DNA of 64,000 bases, taken from the human T2T-CHM13v2.0 reference genome, Homo sapiens. The translations under genes were made by a program, and so were the position numbers. The DNA lies in NCBI RefSeq assembly GCF_009914755.1, contig NC_060935.1; one strand, written 5' to 3'. The notes under the pieces are model-generated. The model did no database searches. It was not told the DNA's origin and worked only from the letters and a program-made list of their open reading frames with translations. Positions 49,755-64,000 of this stretch are shown here, piece by piece; the first letter of the stretch is position 1; each line of letters opens with the position of its first letter.

Positions 49755-50737
49755 CCTCCCACCCCATCCAGACGCCTTTATTCCCTTAAGGGATGTGGGG
49801 CTGGGCTGAGCTCGAGGAGGAGGACTGGGGCCAGAGATTGAGGGTGAGGCGGTGGCCTGGGCAGAGGAATCCAGTATGGGGAGAGAGCCCAGTGCCTGGC
49901 AGGGGAGGGTAATGGGGATAATGGGGACTTTGAAGTGGCCACTACATCCTGCAAAGCCCAGGCCTAGAGAATGGGGTTTATGTGGAGCCTCTGTGTGGAG
50001 AGGGGCCCCGACTGGGGATGTCAGGGTCCCCCTGCCCTTCAGGGCAGCAGCAAGCCTTCCTCCCAGCACCTCTGCTCTCATCTCCACATGCGCTCATGCA
50101 GAGGGCTTTGTAACGGCAGTAGTGTTAACAGCAGCAATTCATTGAGCACCTGCTATAAAACAGGCGGATCACTAGATATTTTACCTGCTTTCTCTCCTTT
50201 AATTCACTCAGCAACACAATCAACTCCATAATAGCCCTATTTAAAACCTAATGTAACTGTGAGTCAGAGAGGGTCAATGACTTGCCCAAGGTCACACAGC
50301 CTAAAAGGGGCTGGCTGTGTCAGCTTTCCAGCTGGTTCCCTGAATCACACATGCCAGGAGCTTTCCCCCGGGCACAGTGGTCTGTCCAGCACCGGGTGCT
50401 GGCTGATGATGTGCTTCCCAGGGGGCTGGAATGCAGGACTCTGGCCTGTCAGGGAGAGTTACAGTCTGATGGGAGGGGGCTGCTCCTGGCAGAGCCCGGT
50501 CTTTGATGGGGGAGCCCAGCTTTGATCTCCTTTTGAAGTCCCGGCCTCTGGAACCAGCAGCTTCAGTGGGGAGAGTGCAGGGGAAGGGGGAGATGAAAGG
50601 GCAGGGGAAGCCAGATTTGGAGAGAGAGGGGGGCAGCCACAAGGAGGGAAACAGATGTGTGCATGAGGACCCGGGAGACAGGGATCTGGGAGAGGGAGTG
50701 GGAGCGGCTGGTGGGAAGAACTGAGGGAAAGGAAATG
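49755..50737 (-). other. NECTIN1: Predicted non-coding 3'UTR terminal exon of the extended NECTIN1 isoform (3' end approximate)
   Basis: Pyrimidine-rich acceptor cccttccccctcctggccttccctgtctgcccacag|CATTTCC; junction to 53108 is reproduced at 54046-54161; AATAAA on the - strand at 49777-49782. Confidence 0.55.
49777..49782 (-). terminator. Candidate polyadenylation signal AATAAA
   Basis: TTTATT on the + strand; first canonical hexamer I found downstream of the 50737 acceptor. Confidence 0.4.
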
Positions 50738-53148
50738 CTGTGGGCAGACAGGGAAGGCCAGGAGGGGGAAGGGCTGAGTGTGCCACTGTGGGGCAGGGGA
50801 GACATGAGAGACAGGCTGGGCCCAGCAGCTCCTCACCCACCATCCCCAGCTTCAAATCCCCTTTCTGTTCCCAGGGAGGCCTTTCTGGCTCTGCCATGGG
50901 CTGACTCTCAGTGTCCAATGGTCCAGAAGTTCCAGTGAGGTCCTGGCTGAGGCCTTATCCAATGGCCTGGGGATGGGGCCAGGGGGAGGTGAGGAGCTCA
51001 CATCCAGGACTTTTCTGGGATCTATCACCCAGGCTTGCACCCCAGGCGAGGGGGCTGGGATGACGGATGGGGGAGGGTGTCTGCCGCATGGCGGTGCACC
51101 TGTTCCTGTCTGACATCCTGGTTCCTCCTGTGGGGCTGCCAAGCAGGGAAGTGAGAGTGCGTGGTGGGGCGGGCTGCCTGGCAGGAAGGGCTAATTCCCA
51201 GCTAATCCCCCAAGCCTACCCCACCCAGTGCCTTGCACTGCTCTCCCATCCCCCACACTCTCAGGTCCCCTTCAGCTCCCCGCAACGCCTCCCCTGTCCT
51301 GGCACCCTGTTCCAGTGCCCTTCAGACCCTGCACCCAAACAGAGGGCCTCTCTGGGGTTCAGGGCAGCAAGTGAAAGCCAATGAGGGGGCAGCAGTAGAC
51401 CCCTCCTTTTTTGAGTTTCCTTCAGGGGCGCCTGGGATTACACCCACTCCAACTCCACGTACTTCAGAGAGGCTGGGAGGAGGTCCAAATTAGGGTTTAT
51501 GGGATTAATGACTTTTCTTCTGGCCCCCCAGACTCTCTCCCCAACTCCAAGCCTCACGCTTTCCTCCCGTTGGCCTCTCCCGGGACCCAGACCTTACAAG
51601 GAGCTGCAGTAGCCAAGCATGCCTCCTTTCACAGGGGCTGGGGAGGGGAGGAACCGCATCTGGCACCCGGCCCCTTCCTCATGCCCACAGCACCCCTTCT
51701 TTGGCGAGGGAGAGGACAGGCTGGAGCAGGGACACATCCTGGTTCTCACACCAGGTTCTCCAAGGATGCTGCACAGACGGCCTCGGGCCCCTTGCTCTTC
51801 ACTCCTCCATACCTAAGCGGGGAACTGAGGCTAAGCACATTTCTGTTGAGGTGGCAGAGGATGGTGTGTCACAGGAGGACAGGAGGTGGTTGAGATGTAG
51901 TAGGGGTGGGGAACACTGGGAAGTGGGGAGCAGATTTCTGTTGTTTGTGGGTCCTGGGACCCAGCGGGCTCTCCTGGTGGGTGGGAAAGGTTCTGTAGGG
52001 GCCACCAGAGAAGCCCCTCCTGGGCCCATCCCCCTGTGCCAGCCGTCTCGGGACCTGCTGGCTCCTGGACCCATGGGACCCCTCTTATACTCAGCGCCAT
52101 CATGTCCCTCCCAGCAGTCCTGTCTCCTCCACCTGTCCTTGTCTCTGTCCCCGTCTCTCTCCCCTCCCACCCTGCTCATCCCAAACCACTCAGCACAAGG
52201 GCCGAGGCCAGGCTTCCTCACCGTATGTGGCCCCTTGGCCTGAGTCCCCAGCGCTCAAATTCCAGTTTCTCAGTCTGAGACACCTTCACCTTCCTTTGGC
52301 TCTCAGGGAGGTCACATGTTTGCTGAAACTCCTCTGATCTTACCACGTCCCCCAGACACTGCCTGGGGTCTTTGCACTGTGGCCTCTGTGTACCTCGCAG
52401 TATCTTCCAGGGCCCACGGTAGAGACAGCCCTGCTCACCACCCATCCCTGCAGAGCCTGTGGGCTCCCCTTCAGCCCAGGACTTAGAAGTCCCGAGCTGG
52501 CCACTCTACTGAGAGTGCCTCAAGGCTAGGAACTCCCCTGGACCCTGGGCCCTCTGCGCAGGGCCTGGAATGAGCAGGCACTCAATAAAGGTTGGTTGAA
52601 TTCAACTGTCCAGCTGGGCCGGGGGGTCAAGAGGAAATGTGGGTGTGCAGCCTTGACCCTGGGGGCTCCTTGGTAAGAAAATGAAGTGGAGGCCAGCGTG
52701 GTGGCTCACACCTATAATCCCAACACATTGGGAGGCCAAAGCGGGTGGATCACCTGAGTTCAGGAGTTTGACACCAGCCTAAGGGGCCGGCTGGGATGCA
52801 GGGAGTGAGGCCACTTCTGGGGCCCACAGAGGGATAAGGAGGACTGTTGGAACAGGAAGGGGCCCTAGACTTGATTTAGATTTCACCGGTGGGGAAACTG
52901 AGGCTCAGAGAGGGGAAACAGTGTATGGCAGAAATGGAACAACATTCCTGCCCTCTGGCTCCTGGTCCACATTTCTTCTCCTGTTCTCACCAGGCCCCTG
53001 CCCACCTCCCCCACCCTTTCATTGCCAAGCCCAGCAGGTAGGGTGCAGGCCCTTCCAGGAAGGGCAAGAAGGGGCTCTCAGAGCAGGAGGGAGGTGGGTG
53101 GGTTTACCTGTGGTCCAGAAGCAGGGGTGGGTGGCTAGGGGTTATGAG

Positions 53149-53289
53149 CTAGGGTGGGCTCAACTGGATGGTGGCATATTCCACAGCCTCTGCAGGCCCT
53201 GGCACGGGGGTCCGCAGCCCTGGCACGAGTTCCAGGGCAGAGGTGTCCAGCTCTGCATAGTGGCTGTGAGTGTCCTTTAGGCCAGAGCC
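53149..53289 (-). CDS. NECTIN1: Predicted alternative terminal coding exon of NECTIN1 carrying tandem ITIM/ITSM-like motifs (46 aa + stop; exon spans 53108-53289)
   Basis: Acceptor cctgtcccttctgcctcattcctag|GGC; open phase-0 frame GSGLKDTHSHYAELDTSALELVPGLRTPVPGPAEAVEYATIQLSPP*; in frame with the donor at 62143; downstream donor CAG|GTAAAC at 53107. Confidence 0.8.
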   Translation of the reverse strand, partial: GSGLKDTHSHYAELDTSALELVPGLRTPVPGPAEAVEYATIQLSPP

Positions 53290-54045
53290 CTAGGAATGAG
53301 GCAGAAGGGACAGGTGGCAGGAGGGGTCGGTGGGGGTGTGGTCAGGACCAGACGAGGCACCCCAGGGCCAGGCGTCGGGGGAGATGGGAGGTGTGGGTGT
53401 GCAGGGAAGCATATGAGAGAGAAGGGAACCATGGAGGGTCAGGGGGATGGGGGGAGAGAGAGACGCAGAACACCAATTACTCAGTGACAACAGAGGAAAC
53501 AGGTTTAGAAAAGGTGTTTACAAAAATTAGTCACAAAACATTTACCTGCTGTGCTAAGCTGTGTCCTCTTAGGCCATGGGCATGGGTGGACAGAGGCAGG
53601 GTGGGTCCTACTCCTGAACCCCCTGTATTTGCCTCCGAGACGTTATTTGTGCTAACCCTTTCATTTTGCAGAGGGAAGAGAGATGCCTGGAGAGGGGACA
53701 TGCTGTGCAGGGGGTCACGGGGAGGCTCCTGGGGCATAAAACAGAACTTGGAGTCAAAGGGCCTGGCTTTAAAGTTTTGCCGGACCCCCCTGCTGTGGCT
53801 TGACAGGCAGATGGCTCAACCCATCTGAGCTGAGTTTTTCTTTTGTGAAATGGGAAAATAGAACTTATAAGCATATCACTATGGTTAGAACCCAGGGCTC
53901 CAACTCCCACCTCTAGCTATTCAGCGGCACTGCAGTTCTTTGACTCTTAGTGTGATTTGCAAATTATTAGAATAAGAGTGCTCCAAGGACAGGGGCTGAC
54001 ATGAAGTTGAGTAGCAGAGGCTCTCCCTCCCTCTGCTGGGAGTTG

Positions 54046-54161
54046 CAGATGTGCGAATGGGGACCCAGGAGACAGGGAGCTGGGAGAGGGAATGGGAGTG
54101 GCTGGTGGGAAGAACTGGGGTAGAGAAAATGCTGTGGTCCAGAAGCAAGGGTGGGTAGCTA
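54046..54161 (-). other. Intronless local copy of a spliced NECTIN1 3'UTR junction
   Basis: 54132-54161 matches 53108-53137 (28/30) and 54046-54131 matches 50652-50737 (75/86); the join removes exactly a GT...AG segment. Confidence 0.75.
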
Positions 54162-54929
54162 CTGACAACTCACCCTGTGGCTGTGCCAAGCTCCTTTCCC
54201 TCCCAGGGCCTCAGTTTCCCCTTCAGCAAAATAGGAGGGTGGCTTGATGATCCCTGAGGTCCTTCCAGCTCTTCTCTCTAGATCTATCCTCACAAGCTCC
54301 TCCTCCTCAGCTCAATGCTCAGTGCCAGTGTGCAGGCAGATAGATCATCTGTCCACAGAGCAGGGGCTGAGGGAGAGGAGGGCTCTCGCACGCCGGGAGG
54401 GCAGGGGCTGGTACAGGAAGAAGGCTGTGTGCTATTGCAGGGAGCTCTGTGACCTGGGCTGCTGCTCACTCTTTTCCTTGGCTGGGCCGCCTGGGCAGCA
54501 GGGAAAGCTAGGTGTGCTGATTTCAGTTGCCCTCCATCAACGCCCATCTCGTGTCCATCAATGACACATGGCATGGGCAGGGACACATGGCAGAGCTAAG
54601 ATGAATGCAATGAGCTCCTGATTCCTCACAAGGGAAAGTCACACTCTGACACCTGCTCCTCCCTTTGGCCCTGTGCTTCCACAGCCTGCCTGGAGTTGGA
54701 GGTGGGGTCAGGGGCTGGGAGGAGACACCTCTTTTCCAGAAGGAAGCAGCCTGGGTTGGAGGTTGGGGGTACAGGAGACCAGGGGCAGAAGGAAGGGGAA
54801 GGAGGCTAGACAGACAGGAAGTCTGGGTCCCAACCCACAAGTTGGGGGGACCTATAAGTGTGGCTGAGGGGCGGGGAGGTGGGGTCTGGGCAAGCAGCAC
54901 AGTGTGAGTAGGAGATGCTGGGAGCAAAA

Positions 54930-55295
<366 letters not shown>

Positions 55296-57020
55296 TAAAG
55301 ATGGGAAGAGTGGCTGCTGCTCTGGGATGGTGTGAAGGCCATCCTGCAGAGGCAGAGGGGTACATTGGTGGTGTCCCCATGACTAAATGGATCCTACCTC
55401 TTGTCCCTCCCATCATCCTGAGGATGCCTGGGGACTGGTTCTTCAGGTAAATGCGAGGCCAGGTGTGTCCTGGGGTTGTGCAGACTCTATAGATTTCCAC
55501 TGGGGAGGTCTTCCAGACAGCTTCTTTATGCAGACCTTCCCTAGCTGTGTGCCACTGGACAGGAGCAACCTGACTCTGAGCCCCAGGGAAGCCTGGGAGT
55601 TTAGAGGGTGATGGCCAAAGGTCGTTTGGGAATATCTCACCCAGGTAAGTGGAGAGGAGCTCAACTACATGGTTTGGGACCACCTTATCCAGGATGTGGG
55701 GCTGCCCAGGGAGCACTGGGCACTTTGCCTTTAGCCTTCGTAGAATCTGTCTCAAAGATGACAGAAAGCAATGACATGTGACTCCTGCTGGGTGATACCA
55801 GGAGGGTCCCAAGAAAACAGGTGGCGAAAGGTAAAATAGAGAATTGGGCCAGCACCTGCTGGCAAGGAAGACCTCACCCAAAGTGGAAGGCAGGCCCTGG
55901 AGAGTTCCTGGCACAAAGTGGTAGCCCAGTTGCCAAATCTTTCATCAGCAGGGACCTGGGAGAACATCGTGGTGGAGGGGAGTTTCAGGTCCAGTGCTTC
56001 ACGCATTTGAAAGATGTGCAGGGAACAGGGCTGCAAGGGCAGCAGAGCTGGCTGGTTATTGTTAAGTCATGTTGGAGAAGGAGAAACTGAGGGCCATCAG
56101 CAGTTAGAGGCTCAACCTCAGAGCTGGAGACCCTCTTTGGTTGCTTCCAAAGAGACCCATATCCTACCGTGGAGGAGTGGACACAGCTGAGGAACAGACC
56201 CAGGATGTGAGAGTAGGAATCAGAGGGCTCCAGGGCAGCTCAGCCAAGGCAGGCCTGTTGTGCTTGGTAAGGGCCCTGCTGGGGAAAACCTGGGTCTCTG
56301 AAACCGATGGGAGGATGAGTGAGTGGAGAACCTTGAGTGGGTGGCCCACTCTTCTCTAGTTAAAGAGCTAACAGCACCGCATGCTGGAAGATGCTGTGGA
56401 GGCCTTTCCCCTGCGAGGCAACGGATGCCCCCTCCTCTGTTCCTGGCTGTAGGCTGATGCTGGGGTTAAAGCCCAGCACAACCCAGCTGGGTCCATGCTG
56501 GACCTGATCAAGAAGGAAGATGACAGGCCTGCAGAGCCAGGAGAGCAACAGCAAGCTAGCGTTGACCAGCAGAAGTCTGGGGAGCACCCCTGGGTTGGAT
56601 TTTGAGGGTTCTTGACCAAGTGAGCCAGAATATAGACTGAATAAACAAGAATTCATTGATTTGGGAGCGCACTTTCTCAGGACATGGGATTCAACACCCT
56701 TCAAGGACCCCAAAGGATTGGGCAAATTTACTGCTGAGGCATGGTGTTTGCACAGTGCACAAGTGCAGAATTGGGATTGACATACTAAACCCACATGAGG
56801 TCTGTGGGGGTGAAGGCCAACTGGAAACTCTGAAACTACCTCATCACCCAAGAGAGTAAATCAAAAAGGATATTGTACTCAGGACGGGGAAGATGGCAGA
56901 GATCATTGTCATCACTAAAGACCTAAAGGATGCAAGGGTGCAGGGCCCTCTCTAATCTTCATTTAACTAATCAGTCTGACCCCTACAGAAACCAGACAGA
57001 TCCTGGAGAATTACGGCCAA

Positions 57021-57350
57021 TGCTATGGTCTTAATGTTGGTATTCCCCCAAATTCATATTCTGAAATCCTAACCTCCGAGGGGATGACATTAGGAAGTGA
57101 GGCCTTTGGGAGGTGAATGGGATTAGTGCCCTTATAAAAGAGGCCCAGAGGGCTTCTATCCTCTTCCACCGTTTGAGAACGCAAAGTGAAGTCACCATCT
57201 GTGAACCAGAAAGTATTGCCCTCACTAGACACTGAATAGCTTGATGCTTTGGACTTCCCAGCCTCCAGAACTGTGAGAAACACGTTTCCATTGTTTATAA
57301 GCCACCCGGTTCATGGTATGTTTTTATAGCAGCCTGAATGGGAAAAGACA
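57021..57350 (+). mobile_element. MLT1A-like LTR
   Basis: tgctatggtcttaatgtt...ttataagccaccc...tagcagcctgaa. Confidence 0.8.
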
Positions 57351-57478
57351 GCTAGCATAGCCTCAATCAAGTGGTCACCCCGATGGCAGCTGCTGGAATG
57401 GTCTTCTAAATGACAGCTGCAGTGCCAGTTTGGCGGCAATACTCCGAAAGGCCTCTATAGGATGCTATGTCCCCACTA

Positions 57479-57910
<432 letters not shown>

Positions 57911-60723
57911 AGCAGGAGTGGCTCACGGTTACCATCACACCCAGTGACCCAATGGGGGAATTTTGTGCTTTTATTCCCACAACTCTGAGCTCTGCGGGAG
58001 GGAGGGGCCCACAGACTATAAGCTAGGACTGCTGCCTGGGCCCTTGGACTGCATGTGTTTGGGGCCAGCAGGGAAGAAAAGGAGTTGGGTGGTGGCAGGG
58101 GTAACTGACCCATCAGCAGGAGGAGGCCAGGCTGCTTCTGTGCAATGGGGCTAGGGAGGAATGTGTGGAACCCACGCTTGGCCTACTTAGGGGCCTCTTC
58201 TCTTTTGAAGGAATGGACACTTCCAACAACCCTGGCCTGAGGAAGGTGTGTTCATCAAGGCCTCAGCGTCCTCAGGAATAAAACTTTTGTTCACACCAGG
58301 ACCTGCTGTGGAGACAGCCGAGCGAGGGGAATTGAGAAGGGATATGGACAGGAGAGGATGGGTACCAGTGTGGCCCTAAGATCTGCTGCAGCAACAGGGG
58401 CCACATCCCCAGGAAGGAAGGCACACTGAATCGAAGAGGAGCTGCTCCCTGCCCCTGGATGGAAGAGCAGATCTCAGCACGCGGCAGACCGTGGCAGTGT
58501 GGACCCGGACAGCTGCGGAGCGTGGCTGGCTGCAGCCCCAGCTGCCACCCCGCTGGATCCACCCAGCATTTGTGCTGAGACCGCAATTCCCCTAGACCGC
58601 TCTCAGCCAACAACTAGACAGGCTGGGAATCCAGCGCAGGCCCTTTCCTGTGGGACGCAGGAGTCCTCTAATAGCAGCGATGGCCCAAGGATGGCACAGT
58701 GCTTGGCTACACTGCGCTGCCATCCTGAGACTTTCTTTTCAGCCCTCCTTCTTTCCCCATCCCCTTTCATGGGAGGTGGATCAGCATCCTGCTCTGAGGC
58801 TCTCCCTGCCACCTGCTGCTCCCTCGTGTGTCCTTCACAGGTGTCCCCCAGTGACTCTTGCATGTCTAATCTCAGCTTGGCATCTGCTCCTTGGAGTACC
58901 TGAACTTCAGACTCCATCCATCCAAAGGTCATTGGGTCCAGTTTTCTGCTTCTAGCCTGGGCTGTCCGTGCTCACAACACCGGGGAGATGGAAGCCCCTC
59001 TCCTTAGGACAGGGGATGTCTCCTCCTCCCTCCTTGTTGAGACATTGGCTTTGAGTCCTCTGGAAGTCCTTCCTCAGACCCAGTTTAGAGCCTCCCAGCT
59101 CTCTAAATGGTTCCTGCCACTTGAGCGGTCCCTAGTCCAGAAATCATGGCGGGTGTTGAGTGGAGTACCACGGCCTTAGTGAGCACCCTTGGGTGTGTGT
59201 GCATCATGGACCTGGCCCACACAGAGGGGCCTTGGCCCACCCGGTCTGGGGCCGCTGAGCTTGGCCCCCAGGCTCCCTGCAGCCTTCCCACCTCCCTTGA
59301 AGCCCCATGGTGAACAGCGCCTGCTCTCTGCCTGGCTCCTTCTCGTGACTTTTTGGGAAGGAGAATTGATAATATCAATGATGTGACTTGTAGACAAGCT
59401 GCATCGCCAACGAATCCGAGTTCTGGGGATAAATCCTTTTCTCGCCCGGTAATTGCTCTGTAAGCCAAAAGGAATTACACTTTTTGGCAACCACAACAGA
59501 GCCTCCCCAGGACGCCAGAGCTTCCCTTCCGCTGGTGACTTCCACACACCACCCGGCAGGCCGTTCACAAGCCTCTGTCCATCCAGACGCCCTAACCACG
59601 GCCCCTGGGCTCAGGACATAGGGTGTAGGTGCTCTCTTCGCCCCCTCAACCTGCCGCTCCTGCCCGTGGCTGGTGGGTGGAGGTGGGCTCACTGTGCTCT
59701 TTGTCCCAAGTGGCTCTTGAATGGATACAGTCATCAGGGGATTCCACCAACCCAACATAAGCAGAGCCCGGGGAGGGAAGGCGGTGAGGGACGAGGAAGA
59801 GTCAGGGCCATGAGCTAGGGTCTGGGCTTGGATGAGAGAGGAGGGGAGCGAAAGGATGAGTGTGCAGAGGGACGGGTGAAGGCAGTGGGCACTGTCCTGA
59901 AGCTGCTCCTTGTGCCCCCAGGGAGGGCTGGGCATGCCAGGCGTGGGGGCAGCAGTCAGAGAGCAAGACCGAGAAGCGTCAGTGGGGATTAGGGCCAGCT
60001 GCAGCTGTTCCATTCCGTCACAGAGATTTTTATGCCGAGCCTGGGCCCGCTCTATGGGGGATCCCACTGGAGTTTCCATGATTTTCCAAATTGCTCCCTT
60101 CCATCATCTTCCTTCTCCCTCCAGCCCCAGGCCCCCATCGCTCCCTCTTTCTCCTCCCCTTCTTTCACCATGGCTCTGACAAGTGAGGTTAGTGACTCTT
60201 GACTGGAGGCTAAGGGAAAAGGCCCATTTGGAGAACGCCGAATGAGGCATGGCTTTCTCTTTCTGGAAATAGTGGTCTCCCCGCTCCCCTACCTCCCTTG
60301 CTTTCGGGCCTGGGATGATGTGCTCTCTCTCTCCTGAGGCAGGCGTGAGCTGGTGTCTGCAGGTGGGAGATTCTCGCCCTGCTTGGTGCTTAGAATGCCC
60401 TGGCCCCCGACGCAGGACTCTGAACCCAAGTTCTCTGGCCTGTGTGTTCACTGTCTGGGTCCCTGGAGCTGAGGGGCCACCAGGCAGCAGAGCTGGGCCC
60501 TCCTGCTGACAGTAATCCCGGGGCTGCAGCAGCCTTGGCATTAGCGGTACCAGGTGACCCTGAGGCTCTCAAGCCCTGCCCAGGCTTCCCTGTGTTCAGG
60601 TGAACTGCCCAGCATCTGCTCATCATGCTGGCTGCTGCCTGCTTAGGGCCTGGACTTGAGAGCCAGGGTCCCAGGGTGTGAAGCCTTCCCCAATGTCTCT
60701 GGGTGATCTTGGGCAAGACTTTT

Positions 60724-61118
60724 GTTATGGTTTGAATGTGTCCCCCCAAATTCGTGTGTTGGAAAGTCTATCTTCAGTGTAAGGGTGTGGGAGGTGGGGC
60801 CTAATGAGAGGTGATTAGGTCATAGATTAGGCCTTCACGGATGCATTGTCTCTATCAAGGGAGCAGGTTAGTTATGGAGGCAGTGGGCATGTTATGAAAC
60901 TGAGTCTGGCCCCTTCCTGCTCTCTCACTCTCAGGGCATGCTTTCTCGCCTGCCGGCCTTCCACCATGGGATGAAGCAGCAAGAAGGCTCTTGCCAGAGG
61001 CAGACCCCTCGACCTTGGACTTTCCAGCCCCCAGAACTGTAAGAAATAAATCTCTCTTCTTTATATATTGCCCAGTCTCAGGTATTTTTTTATAGCATCA
61101 CAAAACAGACTAAGACAC
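60724..61118 (+). mobile_element. MST-type LTR inserted in a MIR
   Basis: tgttatggtttgaatgtgtcccc...cagactaagaca; MIR halves on both sides. Confidence 0.82.
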
Positions 61119-62107
61119 TTCAAGTTCACTGAGCCTCCGTTTCCTTATCTATAAAATGGGGCAACGGAAGGACTTATCATATAGATTGTTGAACAATCCA
61201 TGTGATAAGAACAATGTTTGAAAAGTGACTAGCCAGCAAGTGTTCCACACTGTCATTATGATCCCTTCTGTTGGAACCGGCAGGCCCATGCTGTGCAGAC
61301 TGGGATGTGGGGGTGCACCTCAGATGAGAAGGAGAGTGGTACAGGAGCTACCCAGCTGCTGTTTGAGGAATGGATGTTGTGTCCACAGTGAGTTCTAGCT
61401 CATTTCCATGTCTCTAGGTTGGTTGAGGAATAGCACATAGCTGGTGGTCCTTTGTACCCTGGGTAGTATCAGAAGGTGGACGCTGGGCTGGCTCTCTGGG
61501 CTCAGTACCCTGGGAAGGGAATGCTACCTCCCTGGGGGCAGGATTTGGCACCTCCAGATGGGTTCATGTTGGTACTTCCTGCCAAGAGTGAGGATGGCTG
61601 TACCACGGAGACAAAGGCCTGGCTCTCCTGCCAGTGCCAGGAGAGTGTGTGTTATCTTTGGGTCCAGGCGGTCTGGCCTGGGTCTCTGGGCTGCACTGTA
61701 TGGGTAACACCCCTTGCCCCCAAGTCTGCTGAAAGGAGCCAGATATGGGCAAAGGTGGCAGCCATTCAAGTGGATGCTGGCCCTCTGAGTGGCTGGGAGT
61801 GAGGCCAGGAAGAGGCAGCACCTCCCGCTGGCAGCCCCGTTGGCAGCACTGGGAACTAAGGTGCAGGGTACAGAGCTGGAGGTGGGGCTTGGGGGAGGGA
61901 GAGGTGGGCACCAAGCTGGGGGGCCAGACTCATTGGAAATGCCAGTCTTCCAGAATGGTCTGTCCAGCATCCAGTCACCCTTTGCCCAGGGTGCCTGCAG
62001 TGCTTGGGTGGGCCTCCCTGTGCCCCCCTGCCCTCACCTCCTCCACCTCATCTGTCTGGTTTCCCTCTAAGGCAGCTGGGCTCATGGCCAGGCTGGGTGG
62101 TCCTGGG

Positions 62108-62257
62108 CTAGGGGCACTCTCCTCGAGGTTCGGTTGTCCTTACCGAGGGGTGGTAGGAGGGGGAGACCCCCAGATCATAGTAGGGGGGCTGCAGGGACAG
62201 CTTCTGCAAGTCCTCCTCTTCTTGCTGCTGCTGCCTCCCTGGGTCCAGGTGGACAAC
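62108..62257 (-). CDS. NECTIN1: NECTIN1 beta last coding exon as classically described (ends VRTTEPRGECP*)
   Basis: Acceptor ttctcttccag|GTT; 150 nt = VVHLDPGRQQQQEEEDLQKLSLQPPYYDLGVSPSYHPSVRTTEPRGECP plus TAG at 62108-62110; contains internal donor TCG|GTAAGG at 62143. Confidence 0.95.
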   Translation of the reverse strand, partial: VVHLDPGRQQQQEEEDLQKLSLQPPYYDLGVSPSYHPSVRTTEPRGECP

Positions 62258-62740: not shown

Positions 62741-62816
62741 CTGGATATCCTCAGGCACAAGGGAGCTTTGCCTGCTGGGAGAAGGCTCCGGCTTCTGGGA
62801 GAGGGGCTGGTCGGTC
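62741..62816 (-). CDS. NECTIN1: NECTIN1 beta cytoplasmic exon (76 nt)
   Basis: Acceptor tctccag|G; encodes (G)TDQPLSQKPEPSPSRQSSLVPEDIQ; donor CAG|GTGGGC; phases match both neighbours. Confidence 0.96.
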
Positions 62817-63873: not shown

Positions 63874-64000
63874 CCGGCCCCATCCGTCTCCGGTGGGCTC
63901 TTCTGCTGCCGGTTGTACAGGAAGAAGACAGTGAGCACAGCACCTAGGATGAGGAACACGGCCACGGTGCCCGCCAGGAGCCTGGCTGCACTTCCCAGAC
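63874..64000 (-). CDS. NECTIN1: NECTIN1 beta (HIgR) isoform transmembrane exon, 5' part beyond the window edge
   Basis: Minus strand translates LGSAARLLAGTVAVFLILGAVLTVFFLYNRQQKSPPETDGAG, the recognised nectin-1 beta transmembrane/juxtamembrane sequence; phase-2 donor GG|GTGAGC at 63873. Confidence 0.97.

What the first reader, a model, noticed from the sequence alone, without database searches (positions are those of the whole stretch)
53108..53289. Hidden NECTIN1 exon encoding a tandem ITIM/ITSM-like tail: a candidate inhibitory-receptor form of the HSV entry receptor nectin-1
Seen: a - strand exon with a pyrimidine-rich acceptor (cttctgcctcattcctag|) and an intact phase-0 frame GSGLKDTH-SHYAEL-DTSALELVPGLRTPVPGPAEA-VEYATI-QLSPP-TAG. 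It is in frame with the phase-0 donor TCG|GTAAGG at 62143 (intron 53290-62143). SHYAEL (53248-53265) and VEYATI (53167-53184) both fit the ITIM consensus [SIVL]xYxx[IVL], and the tyrosines are 27 residues apart. Established: PD-1 has an ITIM plus the ITSM TEYATI about 25 residues apart, and such tandem motifs engage the two SH2 domains of SHP-1/SHP-2. The paralog PVR/CD155-alpha also has an ITIM. The classical nectin-1 isoforms are alpha (afadin-binding PDZ motif), beta (no known signalling motif) and soluble gamma. Inference: splicing gives a ~493-aa nectin-1 (447+46, using the 458-aa beta numbering) that could recruit SHP-2 on adhesion, CD96 binding or HSV gD binding. The stop lies 41 nt upstream of the next junction, within the usual NMD-escape distance. 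I do not know whether any database already annotates this exon.
Basis: partly seen in the sequence, partly recalled or inferred. Interest (0 to 1): 0.95.

Follow-up and report, generated by a model that had tools for sequence, protein, structure and literature searches.

The report
Ancient ITIM-tailed nectin-1 isoform exon
An exon missing from the human RefSeq gene table, downstream of NECTIN1, encodes a tail with two inhibitory-type tyrosine motifs that is conserved from sharks to humans, so this adhesion molecule and herpes simplex receptor probably has an overlooked signalling form.

Summary
The minus-strand exon 53108-53289, its splice signals, the 46-codon frame, both tyrosine motifs and the in-frame donor at 62144 are all as described.

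It is not chance. This is the only tandem ITIM-like pair in all six frames of the 64 kb window. Those models map to the same four window exons and the same 62144|53289 junction.

The tail is also present in a bird, a catshark, an axolotl and three frogs. Across 24 aligned sequences VEYATIQ is 100% identical, the first motif about 82%, and the linker only 37-55%. The tyrosines are 27 or 28 residues apart in every sequence.

Human RefSeq lacks the exon. Full-text searches found no description of it.

The likely mechanism is phosphotyrosine-dependent docking of SHP-2 or SHP-1, as in PVR-alpha. This is inferred, not shown. Human expression could not be tested here. Human alone has Ser instead of Val/Ile two residues before the first tyrosine.

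The parts
63874..64000 (-). Beta-type transmembrane exon of NECTIN1. It is annotated as 63874-64021 and runs off the window end.
   Evidence: It is in the hub gene table. Capuchin residues 344-384 map to 63995-63873. The hydrophobic segment followed by a basic RQQK stretch in the orthologues places the tail in the cytoplasm.
62741..62816 (-). Beta-type cytoplasmic exon.
   Evidence: It is in the hub gene table, and the orthologous models map to 62815-62741.
62144..62257 (-). Penultimate coding exon of the ITIM-tailed form. It is 38 codons long, contains the conserved YYD[LM] motif, and ends at the phase-0 donor TCG|gtaagg.
   Evidence: translation; orthologues map to 62260-62144; donor.
62108..62143 (-). 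Read-through of that donor. It gives the annotated 458-aa beta/HIgR ending (11 codons plus TAG). The RefSeq exon ends on the last base of the stop codon.
   Evidence: and the hub table. There is no AATAAA or ATTAAA on this strand until 57975.
53290..62143 (-). Intron removed to join the beta-type exons to the ITIM exon (gt...ag).
   Evidence: The junction is implied by the orthologous models.
53108..53289 (-). The candidate exon. The coding part is 53152-53289 (46 codons), the stop is at 53149-53151, and 41 nt of 3' UTR run to the donor CAG|gtaaac.
53248..53265 (-). Motif 1, SHYAEL (ITIM consensus). It would be Tyr458 in the numbering of the 493-aa capuchin model.
   Evidence: It is conserved as [VI]xYAELDT[SA]AL in 22 of 23 other sequences.
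53167..53184 (-). Motif 2, VEYATI (ITIM consensus; shares EYATI with the PD-1 ITSM). It would be Tyr485.
   Evidence: VEYATIQ is identical in 24 of 24 sequences.
50738..53107 (-). Putative 3' UTR intron (gtaaac...cccacag).
   Evidence: A 116-nt patch at 54046-54161 matches the spliced product without gaps.
49760..50737 (-). Putative terminal 3' UTR exon. The first canonical polyA signals after the ITIM exon are ATTAAA at 50203 and AATAAA at 49782. The 3' end is not determined.
54046..54161 (-). Isolated 116-nt copy of [53137-53108] joined to [50737-50652]: 103 of 116 bases identical, with no gaps.
   Evidence: The whole human genome holds only these two copies.

Best explanation
53108-53289 is a genuine, evolutionarily ancient alternative 3' coding exon of NECTIN1. 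The gene's beta-type exons encode an alternative transmembrane segment and two cytoplasmic exons. When their last donor at 62144 is spliced instead of read through, the product is a type I membrane protein of about 493 aa. It has the normal nectin-1 ectodomain and lacks the afadin-binding C-terminus. Its cytoplasmic tail ends in two ITIM-consensus tyrosine motifs 27 residues apart. [quoted passage not shown] That would turn adhesion or ligand binding into a phosphatase-mediated signal, as documented for the family member PVR/CD155-alpha. My separate odds: conserved coding exon of vertebrate nectin-1, about 0.95; used at some level in human, about 0.75; acts by phosphotyrosine/SH2-phosphatase docking, about 0.55.
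For: Sequence: intact acceptor, frame, stop and donors. It is the only tandem ITIM-like pair in six frames of the 64 kb window.

Orthologues: all 15 database proteins found with the 46-aa peptide end in this tail. Among them are five named full-length nectin-1 models of 487-494 aa. They map to the same four window exons and the same junction.

Depth: 12 of the 22 proteins found with the tail profile carry both motifs. Six of those are non-mammals: a bird, a catshark, an axolotl and three frogs. An elephant shrew model adds Afrotheria.

Selection pattern in 24 aligned tails: VEYATIQ is 100% identical, motif 1 is 82-83%, and the linker is 55% (placentals) or 37% (all). The Tyr-Tyr spacing is 27 in 21 sequences and 28 in 3. 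Against capuchin, horse, beaver, rat, ferret and tree shrew, the ITIM exon is the best conserved of the four beta-type exons relative to human, e.g. capuchin 43/46 versus 34/40, 19/25 and 34/38.

Mechanism by analogy: both motifs have Ala at pY+1 and Leu/Ile at pY+3. An Ala at pY+1 of an ITIM favours SHP1 recruitment (PMC8631942, abstract). PD-1's two motifs are 25 residues apart (PMC7078208, abstract start in the listing). The CD155-alpha ITIM is phosphorylated by Src and recruits SHP-2 (PMC7037299, passages).
Against: No human transcript, junction-read or peptide evidence could be examined here. The human RefSeq table has only 3 NECTIN1 transcripts, and none uses this exon. Among primates only one model (capuchin) with this tail was returned. 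Human is the only one of 24 sequences with Ser instead of Val/Ile at position -2 of motif 1, and it has His where most have Asp at -4. That could weaken SH2 binding or reflect relaxed constraint. The badger model has His in place of the first tyrosine. Motif 2 is not a strict ITSM. Both motifs also fit the YxxΦ sorting-signal pattern. Nothing shows phosphorylation or phosphatase binding. The orthologous proteins are automated predictions, although the sequence conservation itself is a property of the genomes.
Confidence: 0.6

Rival explanations
1. The two tyrosine motifs act mainly as unphosphorylated YxxΦ sorting signals. In that case they bind clathrin-adaptor mu subunits and direct basolateral sorting or endocytosis of this nectin-1 form, and do not dock phosphatases.
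For: YAEL and YATI both fit Tyr-x-x-hydrophobic. In the same family, the CD155-alpha tail binds the mu1B adaptor subunit for basolateral sorting and also carries the ITIM (PMC7037299, passages). The two roles can therefore coexist.
Against: Conservation extends well beyond a four-residue YxxΦ core. The Val/Ile at -2, the DT[SA]AL that follows motif 1, the full VEYATIQ, and a fixed 27-28 residue spacing over the whole of jawed-vertebrate evolution fit a bidentate reader better.
Confidence: 0.2
2. The exon is functional in other vertebrates but is silent or decaying in humans. The human gene would then make only the alpha, read-through beta and gamma forms.
For: The exon is absent from human RefSeq (hub table). 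Only one primate model has the tail. Human-specific replacements lie next to the first tyrosine.
Against: The human frame, stop, acceptor and both donors are intact. Human differs from capuchin at only 3 of 46 residues, less than in the annotated beta-type exons. Ser at -2 is still within the ITIM consensus. No canonical polyA signal follows the read-through stop for 4.1 kb, so beta-type transcripts must continue somewhere.
Confidence: 0.2
3. The tail belongs to a separate transcription unit that starts near the beta-type transmembrane exon and makes a short membrane protein without the nectin-1 ectodomain.
For: Several automated models are short 'uncharacterized LOC' proteins of 108-280 aa containing only the TM segment and tail. 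They come from jaguar, Weddell seal, badger, rabbit, sheep, ferret and tree shrew.
Against: Five named full-length mammalian models and six non-mammalian ones join the tail to the complete nectin-1 ectodomain. The short models have heterogeneous, non-homologous N-termini typical of fragmentary predictions.
Confidence: 0.07
4. It is a chance open frame with chance motifs in intergenic DNA.
For: The frame is short (46 codons), and single ITIM-like motifs are common: 106 in the window.
Against: This is the only tandem pair in the window. It is conserved from shark to human, with invariant motifs and a variable linker.
Confidence: 0.01

Closest known systems
PVR/CD155 alpha isoform (Necl-5)
   Same: It belongs to the same nectin family, with a V-C2-C2 ectodomain. 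Alternative splicing decides whether the cytoplasmic tail carries an ITIM. That ITIM is phosphorylated by Src and recruits SHP-2 (PMC7037299, passages). PVR is described as the only family member with an ITIM (PMC7286890, passages).
   Different: PVR has a single ITIM; the nectin-1 tail has two motifs at a fixed spacing. No sequence similarity between the tails was detected. Searches of the human genome with the tail found only NECTIN1's own exons. PVR is described as fast-evolving (PMC7286890), whereas this tail is conserved across jawed vertebrates.
Nectin-1 beta / HIgR (annotated 458-aa isoform)
   Same: It shares the ectodomain, the alternative TM exon and the first two cytoplasmic exons. 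It lacks the afadin-binding E/A-x-Y-V end (PMC2175253, passages).
   Different: Beta reads through the donor at 62144 and ends after 11 more codons. The form described here splices that donor to 53289 and gains 46 residues with two tyrosine motifs.
PD-1 cytoplasmic tail (ITIM Y223 plus ITSM Y248)
   Same: Both have two tyrosine motifs about 25-27 residues apart at the end of an Ig-superfamily receptor. The second motif shares EYATI. [quoted passage not shown]
   Different: PD-1's second motif has Thr at -2 (a true ITSM), while nectin-1 has Val. PD-1's ITIM has Gly at pY+1, while nectin-1 has Ala, the residue reported to permit SHP1 binding (PMC8631942 abstract). The ectodomain and biology are unrelated. 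The resemblance is one of motif architecture, not demonstrated homology.
Other adhesion receptors with paired ITIMs (PECAM-1, SIRP-alpha, PZR/MPZL1, CEACAM1-L)
   Same: As I recall, not from any call, these are Ig-superfamily adhesion molecules whose paired ITIMs recruit SHP-2, some of them only in a long splice form.
   Different: This was not tested here. No sequence relationship was examined.

Membership tests
NECTIN1 gene product (alternative isoform) | The exon lies on the gene's strand, downstream, and is in frame with an upstream NECTIN1 donor. | tested here: met
   The phase-0 donor is at 62144 and the phase-0 acceptor at 53289, with a gt...ag intron.
NECTIN1 gene product (alternative isoform) | Orthologues join the same exon to the nectin-1 ectodomain. 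| tested here: met
   There are five named mammalian and six non-mammalian full-length models. The V-set and C2-set Ig domains were confirmed in the capuchin model.
NECTIN1 gene product (alternative isoform) | There is human transcript or protein evidence for the junction. | not testable with these tools
   No RNA-seq, cDNA or proteomics resource was available. Human RefSeq lacks the exon (hub table).
ITIM-bearing inhibitory/adhesion receptors | A cytoplasmic [S/I/V/L]xYxx[I/V/L] motif in a type I membrane protein. | tested here: met
   SHYAEL and VEYATI lie after a TM segment and a basic stop-transfer stretch.
ITIM-bearing inhibitory/adhesion receptors | Tyrosine phosphorylation and SH2-phosphatase (SHP-1/SHP-2/SHIP) recruitment. 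| not testable with these tools
   This needs experiments. The complex predictor offered no human reference proteins and cannot model phosphotyrosine, so it was not used.
ITIM-bearing inhibitory/adhesion receptors | Spacing of two motifs compatible with tandem SH2 engagement. | tested here: inconclusive
   The spacing is 27-28 residues in 24 of 24 sequences, against 25 in PD-1 (PMC7078208). That is similar, but no structural test was done.
ITSM (switch motif, TxYxx[V/I]) | Thr at position -2. | tested here: not met
   Val is at -2 in all 24 sequences.
Afadin-binding nectins | C-terminal E/A-x-Y-V PDZ-binding motif (PMC2175253). | tested here: not met
   The tail ends in LSPP in human and in P-x-L-R or similar in non-mammals.

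The most novel reading that the evidence does not exclude
The textbook 458-aa nectin-1 beta/HIgR ending is the product of an unspliced or truncated cDNA. On this reading, the physiological product of the beta-type exons in all jawed vertebrates, humans included, is the ITIM-tailed protein of about 493 aa. Engagement of its ectodomain by nectin-3, CD96 or herpes simplex gD would trigger tyrosine phosphorylation and recruit SHP-1/SHP-2. Nectin-1 would then be a signalling receptor that answers back to the cell carrying it, not only an adhesion molecule, ligand and virus receptor.
Probability: 0.2. Interest if true: 0.85.

Novelty: new member of a known kind. Interest (0 to 1): 0.72.

Why it matters
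Nectin-1 has been studied for about 25 years as an afadin-linked adhesion molecule, the main herpes simplex entry receptor and a CD96 ligand. The literature I could search credits an ITIM only to PVR within this family. A tail with two ITIMs, conserved since the common ancestor of sharks and humans, implies a conserved signalling output of nectin-1 that current human annotation and reviews omit. It gives direct, cheap tests: junction RT-PCR, Tyr-to-Phe mutants and SHP-1/2 pull-down. It could change how nectin-1 engagement by neighbouring cells, NK/T-cell receptors or viral gD is interpreted. It also flags a probable gap in human gene annotation, and a possible artefact in the reference beta isoform, whose record ends at its stop codon.

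Tried and rejected
- **Exhaustive profile search:** the Ig-domain columns entered the profile (499 positions), so the 150 listed hits were mostly generic Ig/nectin ectodomains. Scanning the 148 representatives held gave 4 more tails with both motifs, 1 with only the first, and 1 unrelated nectin-like protein. The search was therefore of little use for finding paralogous tails.
- **Paralogue search in the human genome:** the 46-aa peptide found only itself. A non-mammalian tail found only NECTIN1's own three exons, plus 8 scattered matches at E 1.4-8.6 that I treat as noise. A profile query is not accepted for this genome.
- **Library and structure look-ups:** Pfam finds no family in the tail. 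A PDB sequence search gives nothing meaningful, with best E 0.67. The protein atlas gave no usable hit.
- **Other model endings:** the extra C-terminal peptide of the Weddell seal model, beyond the 53108 donor, could not be placed in the window. The other alternative endings, in the grey seal and ground squirrel models, could not be placed either.
- **Original HIgR and isoform papers:** these were not held, so I could not check how the beta cDNA's 3' end was defined.
- **Rejected readings:** a chance ORF; an interspersed-repeat origin for the 116-nt patch, since the genome holds only two copies; and a segmental duplication including flanks, since there is no flank similarity above shuffles.
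- **Complex prediction:** not used, for the reasons given in the membership table.
Full report
**1.

Reading the minus strand shows the reported acceptor (cttctgcctcattcctag|G at 53290/53289). A 46-codon frame follows, with SHYAEL at 53265-53248 and VEYATI at 53184-53167. The TAG stop is at 53151-53149 and the donor CAG|gtaaac at 53108/53107.

A TAG overlapping the acceptor closes the frame upstream, so the open frame begins exactly at the exon boundary. The upstream donor TCG|gtaagg at 62144/62143 ends a complete codon. It sits inside the annotated NECTIN1 exon 62108-62257.

In the acceptor, 16 of 18 bases at positions -21 to -4 are pyrimidines, and the 55 nt before it contain no AG.

**2. 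It is not chance**

Translating the whole 64 kb window in six frames gives 106 single matches to [SIVL]xYxx[IVL]. Only one pair lies 20-35 residues apart within a stop-free stretch, and it is this one.

**3. It is a nectin-1 exon in other species**

Searching the protein database with the 46-aa translation returned 15 proteins (E <= 10, 46 candidates). All 15 end in this tail.

- Five are named full-length nectin-1 isoform models: capuchin X3 (493 aa, 96% identical over the peptide), horse F6ZBM6 (494), beaver X2 (488), rat X1 (487) and guinea pig X2 (488).
- One unnamed 711-aa protein also has the nectin Ig domains.
- The other nine are short or fragmentary models: jaguar, tree shrew, Weddell seal, ferret, badger, rabbit and sheep, plus two from unnamed sources.

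tblastn of these proteins on the window places them on four minus-strand exons: about 63995-63873 (alternative TM segment), 62815-62741, 62260-62144 and 53289-53152. For capuchin, residues 409-447 end at 62144 and residues 448-492 start at 53289. No human protein with this tail was listed, and the hub's human RefSeq table has no such exon.

**4. The tail is ancient**

A profile of the TM-plus-tail region found 22 proteins (E <= 1; the 8000 candidates sharing most words were scored).

- Twelve carry both motifs. Six of those are non-mammals: a flycatcher (X4, 497 aa), a catshark 'nectin 1b' (X3, 495 aa), an axolotl (X3, 499 aa) and three frogs.
- The other ten end differently. Five have read-through endings like human beta (Cebus, mouse lemur, porpoise, pangolin, kangaroo rat). 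Two cat models use another segment. Grey seal, ground squirrel and one sheep-hybrid model have other endings.

A third search, restricted to the tail of the capuchin protein, returned 7 proteins among 37 candidates. It added an elephant shrew model fused to an unrelated protein. The exhaustive representative search was swamped by Ig domains but yielded four more unnamed tails with both motifs.

**5. The pattern of conservation points to the motifs**

I aligned 24 tails: human plus 23 others. I left out P0013 and P0014 as near-duplicates of guinea pig and sheep, P0099 because its model diverges before motif 2, and P0180, which was fetched later.

| Region | 14 placentals | all 24 |
|---|---|---|
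| VEYATIQ | 100% | 100% |
| 11-residue motif 1 block | 82% | 83% |
| Linker between motifs | 55% | 37% |

These values are mean pairwise identities. The tyrosines are 27 residues apart in 21 sequences and 28 in 3 (catshark and two unnamed).

The exceptions are these:
- Badger has His in place of the first tyrosine.
- Seal, ferret and badger have single changes in the DTSAL stretch.
- Human is the only sequence with Ser instead of Val/Ile (23 of 23 others) at position -2 of motif 1. It also has His where most have Asp at -4.

Measured against human, the ITIM exon is the best conserved of the four beta-type exons in capuchin (43/46 versus 34/40, 19/25, 34/38), horse, beaver, rat, ferret and tree shrew. 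It is not the best in every species: guinea pig, sheep and rabbit each have another exon slightly higher.

**6. What the protein would be**

The orthologous models have a signal peptide, V-set and C2-set Ig domains (Pfam on the capuchin model) and a hydrophobic segment followed by a basic stretch. The tail is therefore cytoplasmic. It has no Pfam family, no PDB relative and no detectable paralogue elsewhere in the human genome. It lacks the E/A-x-Y-V afadin-binding end that defines the alpha form (PMC2175253, passages).

**7. How it most likely works (inferred)**

Both motifs fit the ITIM consensus, with Ala at pY+1 and Leu/Ile at pY+3. Three published points support the analogy:

- In the same family, the ITIM of CD155-alpha is phosphorylated by Src and recruits SHP-2 (PMC7037299, passages).
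- PD-1 and BTLA bind SHP1/SHP2 bivalently through two motifs, and an Ala at pY+1 of the ITIM permits SHP1 recruitment (PMC8631942, abstract).
- PD-1's motifs are at Y223 and Y248 (PMC7078208, abstract start in the listing).

A fixed 27-28 residue spacing maintained across jawed vertebrates is what a bidentate reader such as a tandem-SH2 phosphatase would impose. I therefore favour phosphotyrosine-dependent SHP-2/SHP-1 docking at about 0.55.

The main functional rival is that the motifs act as YxxΦ sorting signals. CD155-alpha also binds the mu1B adaptor, and the two roles are not exclusive. The second motif is not a strict ITSM because Val, not Thr, is at -2.

**8. The human question**

I could not examine any expression data. 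Three observations favour use in human:

- All signals are intact.
- Only 3 of 46 residues differ from capuchin.
- No AATAAA or ATTAAA lies on this strand between the read-through stop and 57975, a gap of 4.1 kb. The RefSeq beta exon ends on the last base of its stop codon (hub table). The reference beta record therefore has no 3' UTR, and beta-type transcripts must continue somewhere.

Three observations count against it:

- The exon is absent from human RefSeq.
- Only one primate model carries the tail.
- The two human-specific replacements lie next to the first tyrosine.

**9. A fossil of the next junction?**

A 116-nt stretch at 54161-54046, inside the upstream intron, matches the last 30 nt of the exon (53137-53108) joined directly to the 86 nt after the proposed next acceptor (50737-50652). 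The match is 103 of 116 with no gaps.

Alignments to the unspliced sequence break at the junction. The flanks show no similarity above shuffled controls. The whole human genome holds only these two copies.

CCACAG occurs both at the exon end and at the intron end. A microhomology-mediated deletion in a duplicated segment could therefore mimic splicing. However, the absence of any flank or intron similarity makes a small insertion templated by spliced RNA the simpler reading. The first canonical polyA signals after the exon are ATTAAA at 50203 and AATAAA at 49782.

**10. Is it known?**

- The motif strings VEYATI and YAELDTS occur in 0 papers of the searchable library.
- 97 papers hold 'nectin-1' and 'ITIM', and 69 hold 'PVRL1' and 'ITIM'.
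- The six I opened use ITIM only for TIGIT, CD96 or PVR. These were PMC7286890, PMC13434784, PMC6373967, PMC10045777, PMC8390200 and PMC7037299, read as passages.
- The 2020 family-evolution study took only the longest isoform per gene. It states that PVR alone has an ITIM.
- 'nectin-1' + 'SHP-2' + 'splice variant' gave 4 papers, all reviews of nectin-4 or checkpoint therapy by title (listing only).

Subscription papers, supplements and the original HIgR papers could not be seen. The exon does exist in databases as automated predictions for other species. I therefore rate it a new member of a known kind: an ITIM-bearing Ig-superfamily adhesion receptor produced by alternative splicing. It is unannotated in human RefSeq and undescribed in the literature I could search.

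**11. Verdict**

The signalling function and human expression remain to be shown.

Noticed in passing
window 54046-54161 (minus strand): An isolated 116-nt copy (103/116 identical, ungapped) of the candidate exon's last 30 nt joined to the 86 nt after the proposed next acceptor at 50737. The genome holds only two copies and there is no flank similarity. It looks like a small insertion copied from spliced RNA, or a deletion between CCACAG microhomologies.
   Followed up: yes
window 62108-62143 and downstream to 57975 (minus strand): The RefSeq beta-isoform exon ends on the last base of its TAG stop, so the record has no 3' UTR. No AATAAA or ATTAAA follows for 4.1 kb. The reference beta ending may come from an unspliced or truncated cDNA.
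   Followed up: partly
window 53259-53265 (minus strand), motif 1: Human is the only one of 24 aligned sequences with Ser, not Val/Ile, two residues before the first tyrosine. It also has His where most have Asp two residues further upstream. Whether this is fixed in humans or apes is unknown.
   Followed up: partly
window 61585-61908 (minus strand; open frame 61564-61929, 121 aa): Two cat nectin-1 models (556 and 562 aa) continue from the 62144 region into a proline-rich segment. It matches this human open frame at 56% identity over 108 residues. This may be another alternative ending or a mis-prediction.
   Followed up: partly
window 62171-62182 (minus strand), penultimate exon: A YYD[LM] motif is conserved from shark to human in the preceding exon. 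In non-mammals it reads YYDM, which fits the YxxM pattern that I recall as a PI3-kinase SH2 site. It may be a third signalling tyrosine.
   Followed up: no
proteins P0002, P0006, P0009, P0010 (jaguar, Weddell seal, badger, rabbit): Automated annotation in several mammals calls the TM-plus-tail exons a separate 'uncharacterized LOC' gene. This hints at transcripts covering these exons that were not linked to the NECTIN1 ectodomain exons.
   Followed up: partly
protein P0132 (unnamed representative, 562 aa): A different nectin-like protein (V, C2, Ig domains, TM) whose long tail holds three ITIM-like motifs, one of them followed by the same YAELD as in nectin-1. ITIM-bearing tails may be more widespread among nectin relatives of unnamed species.
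   Followed up: no
window 52690-52780: A roughly 90-nt Alu-like fragment lies inside the putative 3' UTR intron. A full Alu lies at 54930-55240, in the intron upstream of the exon.
   Followed up: no
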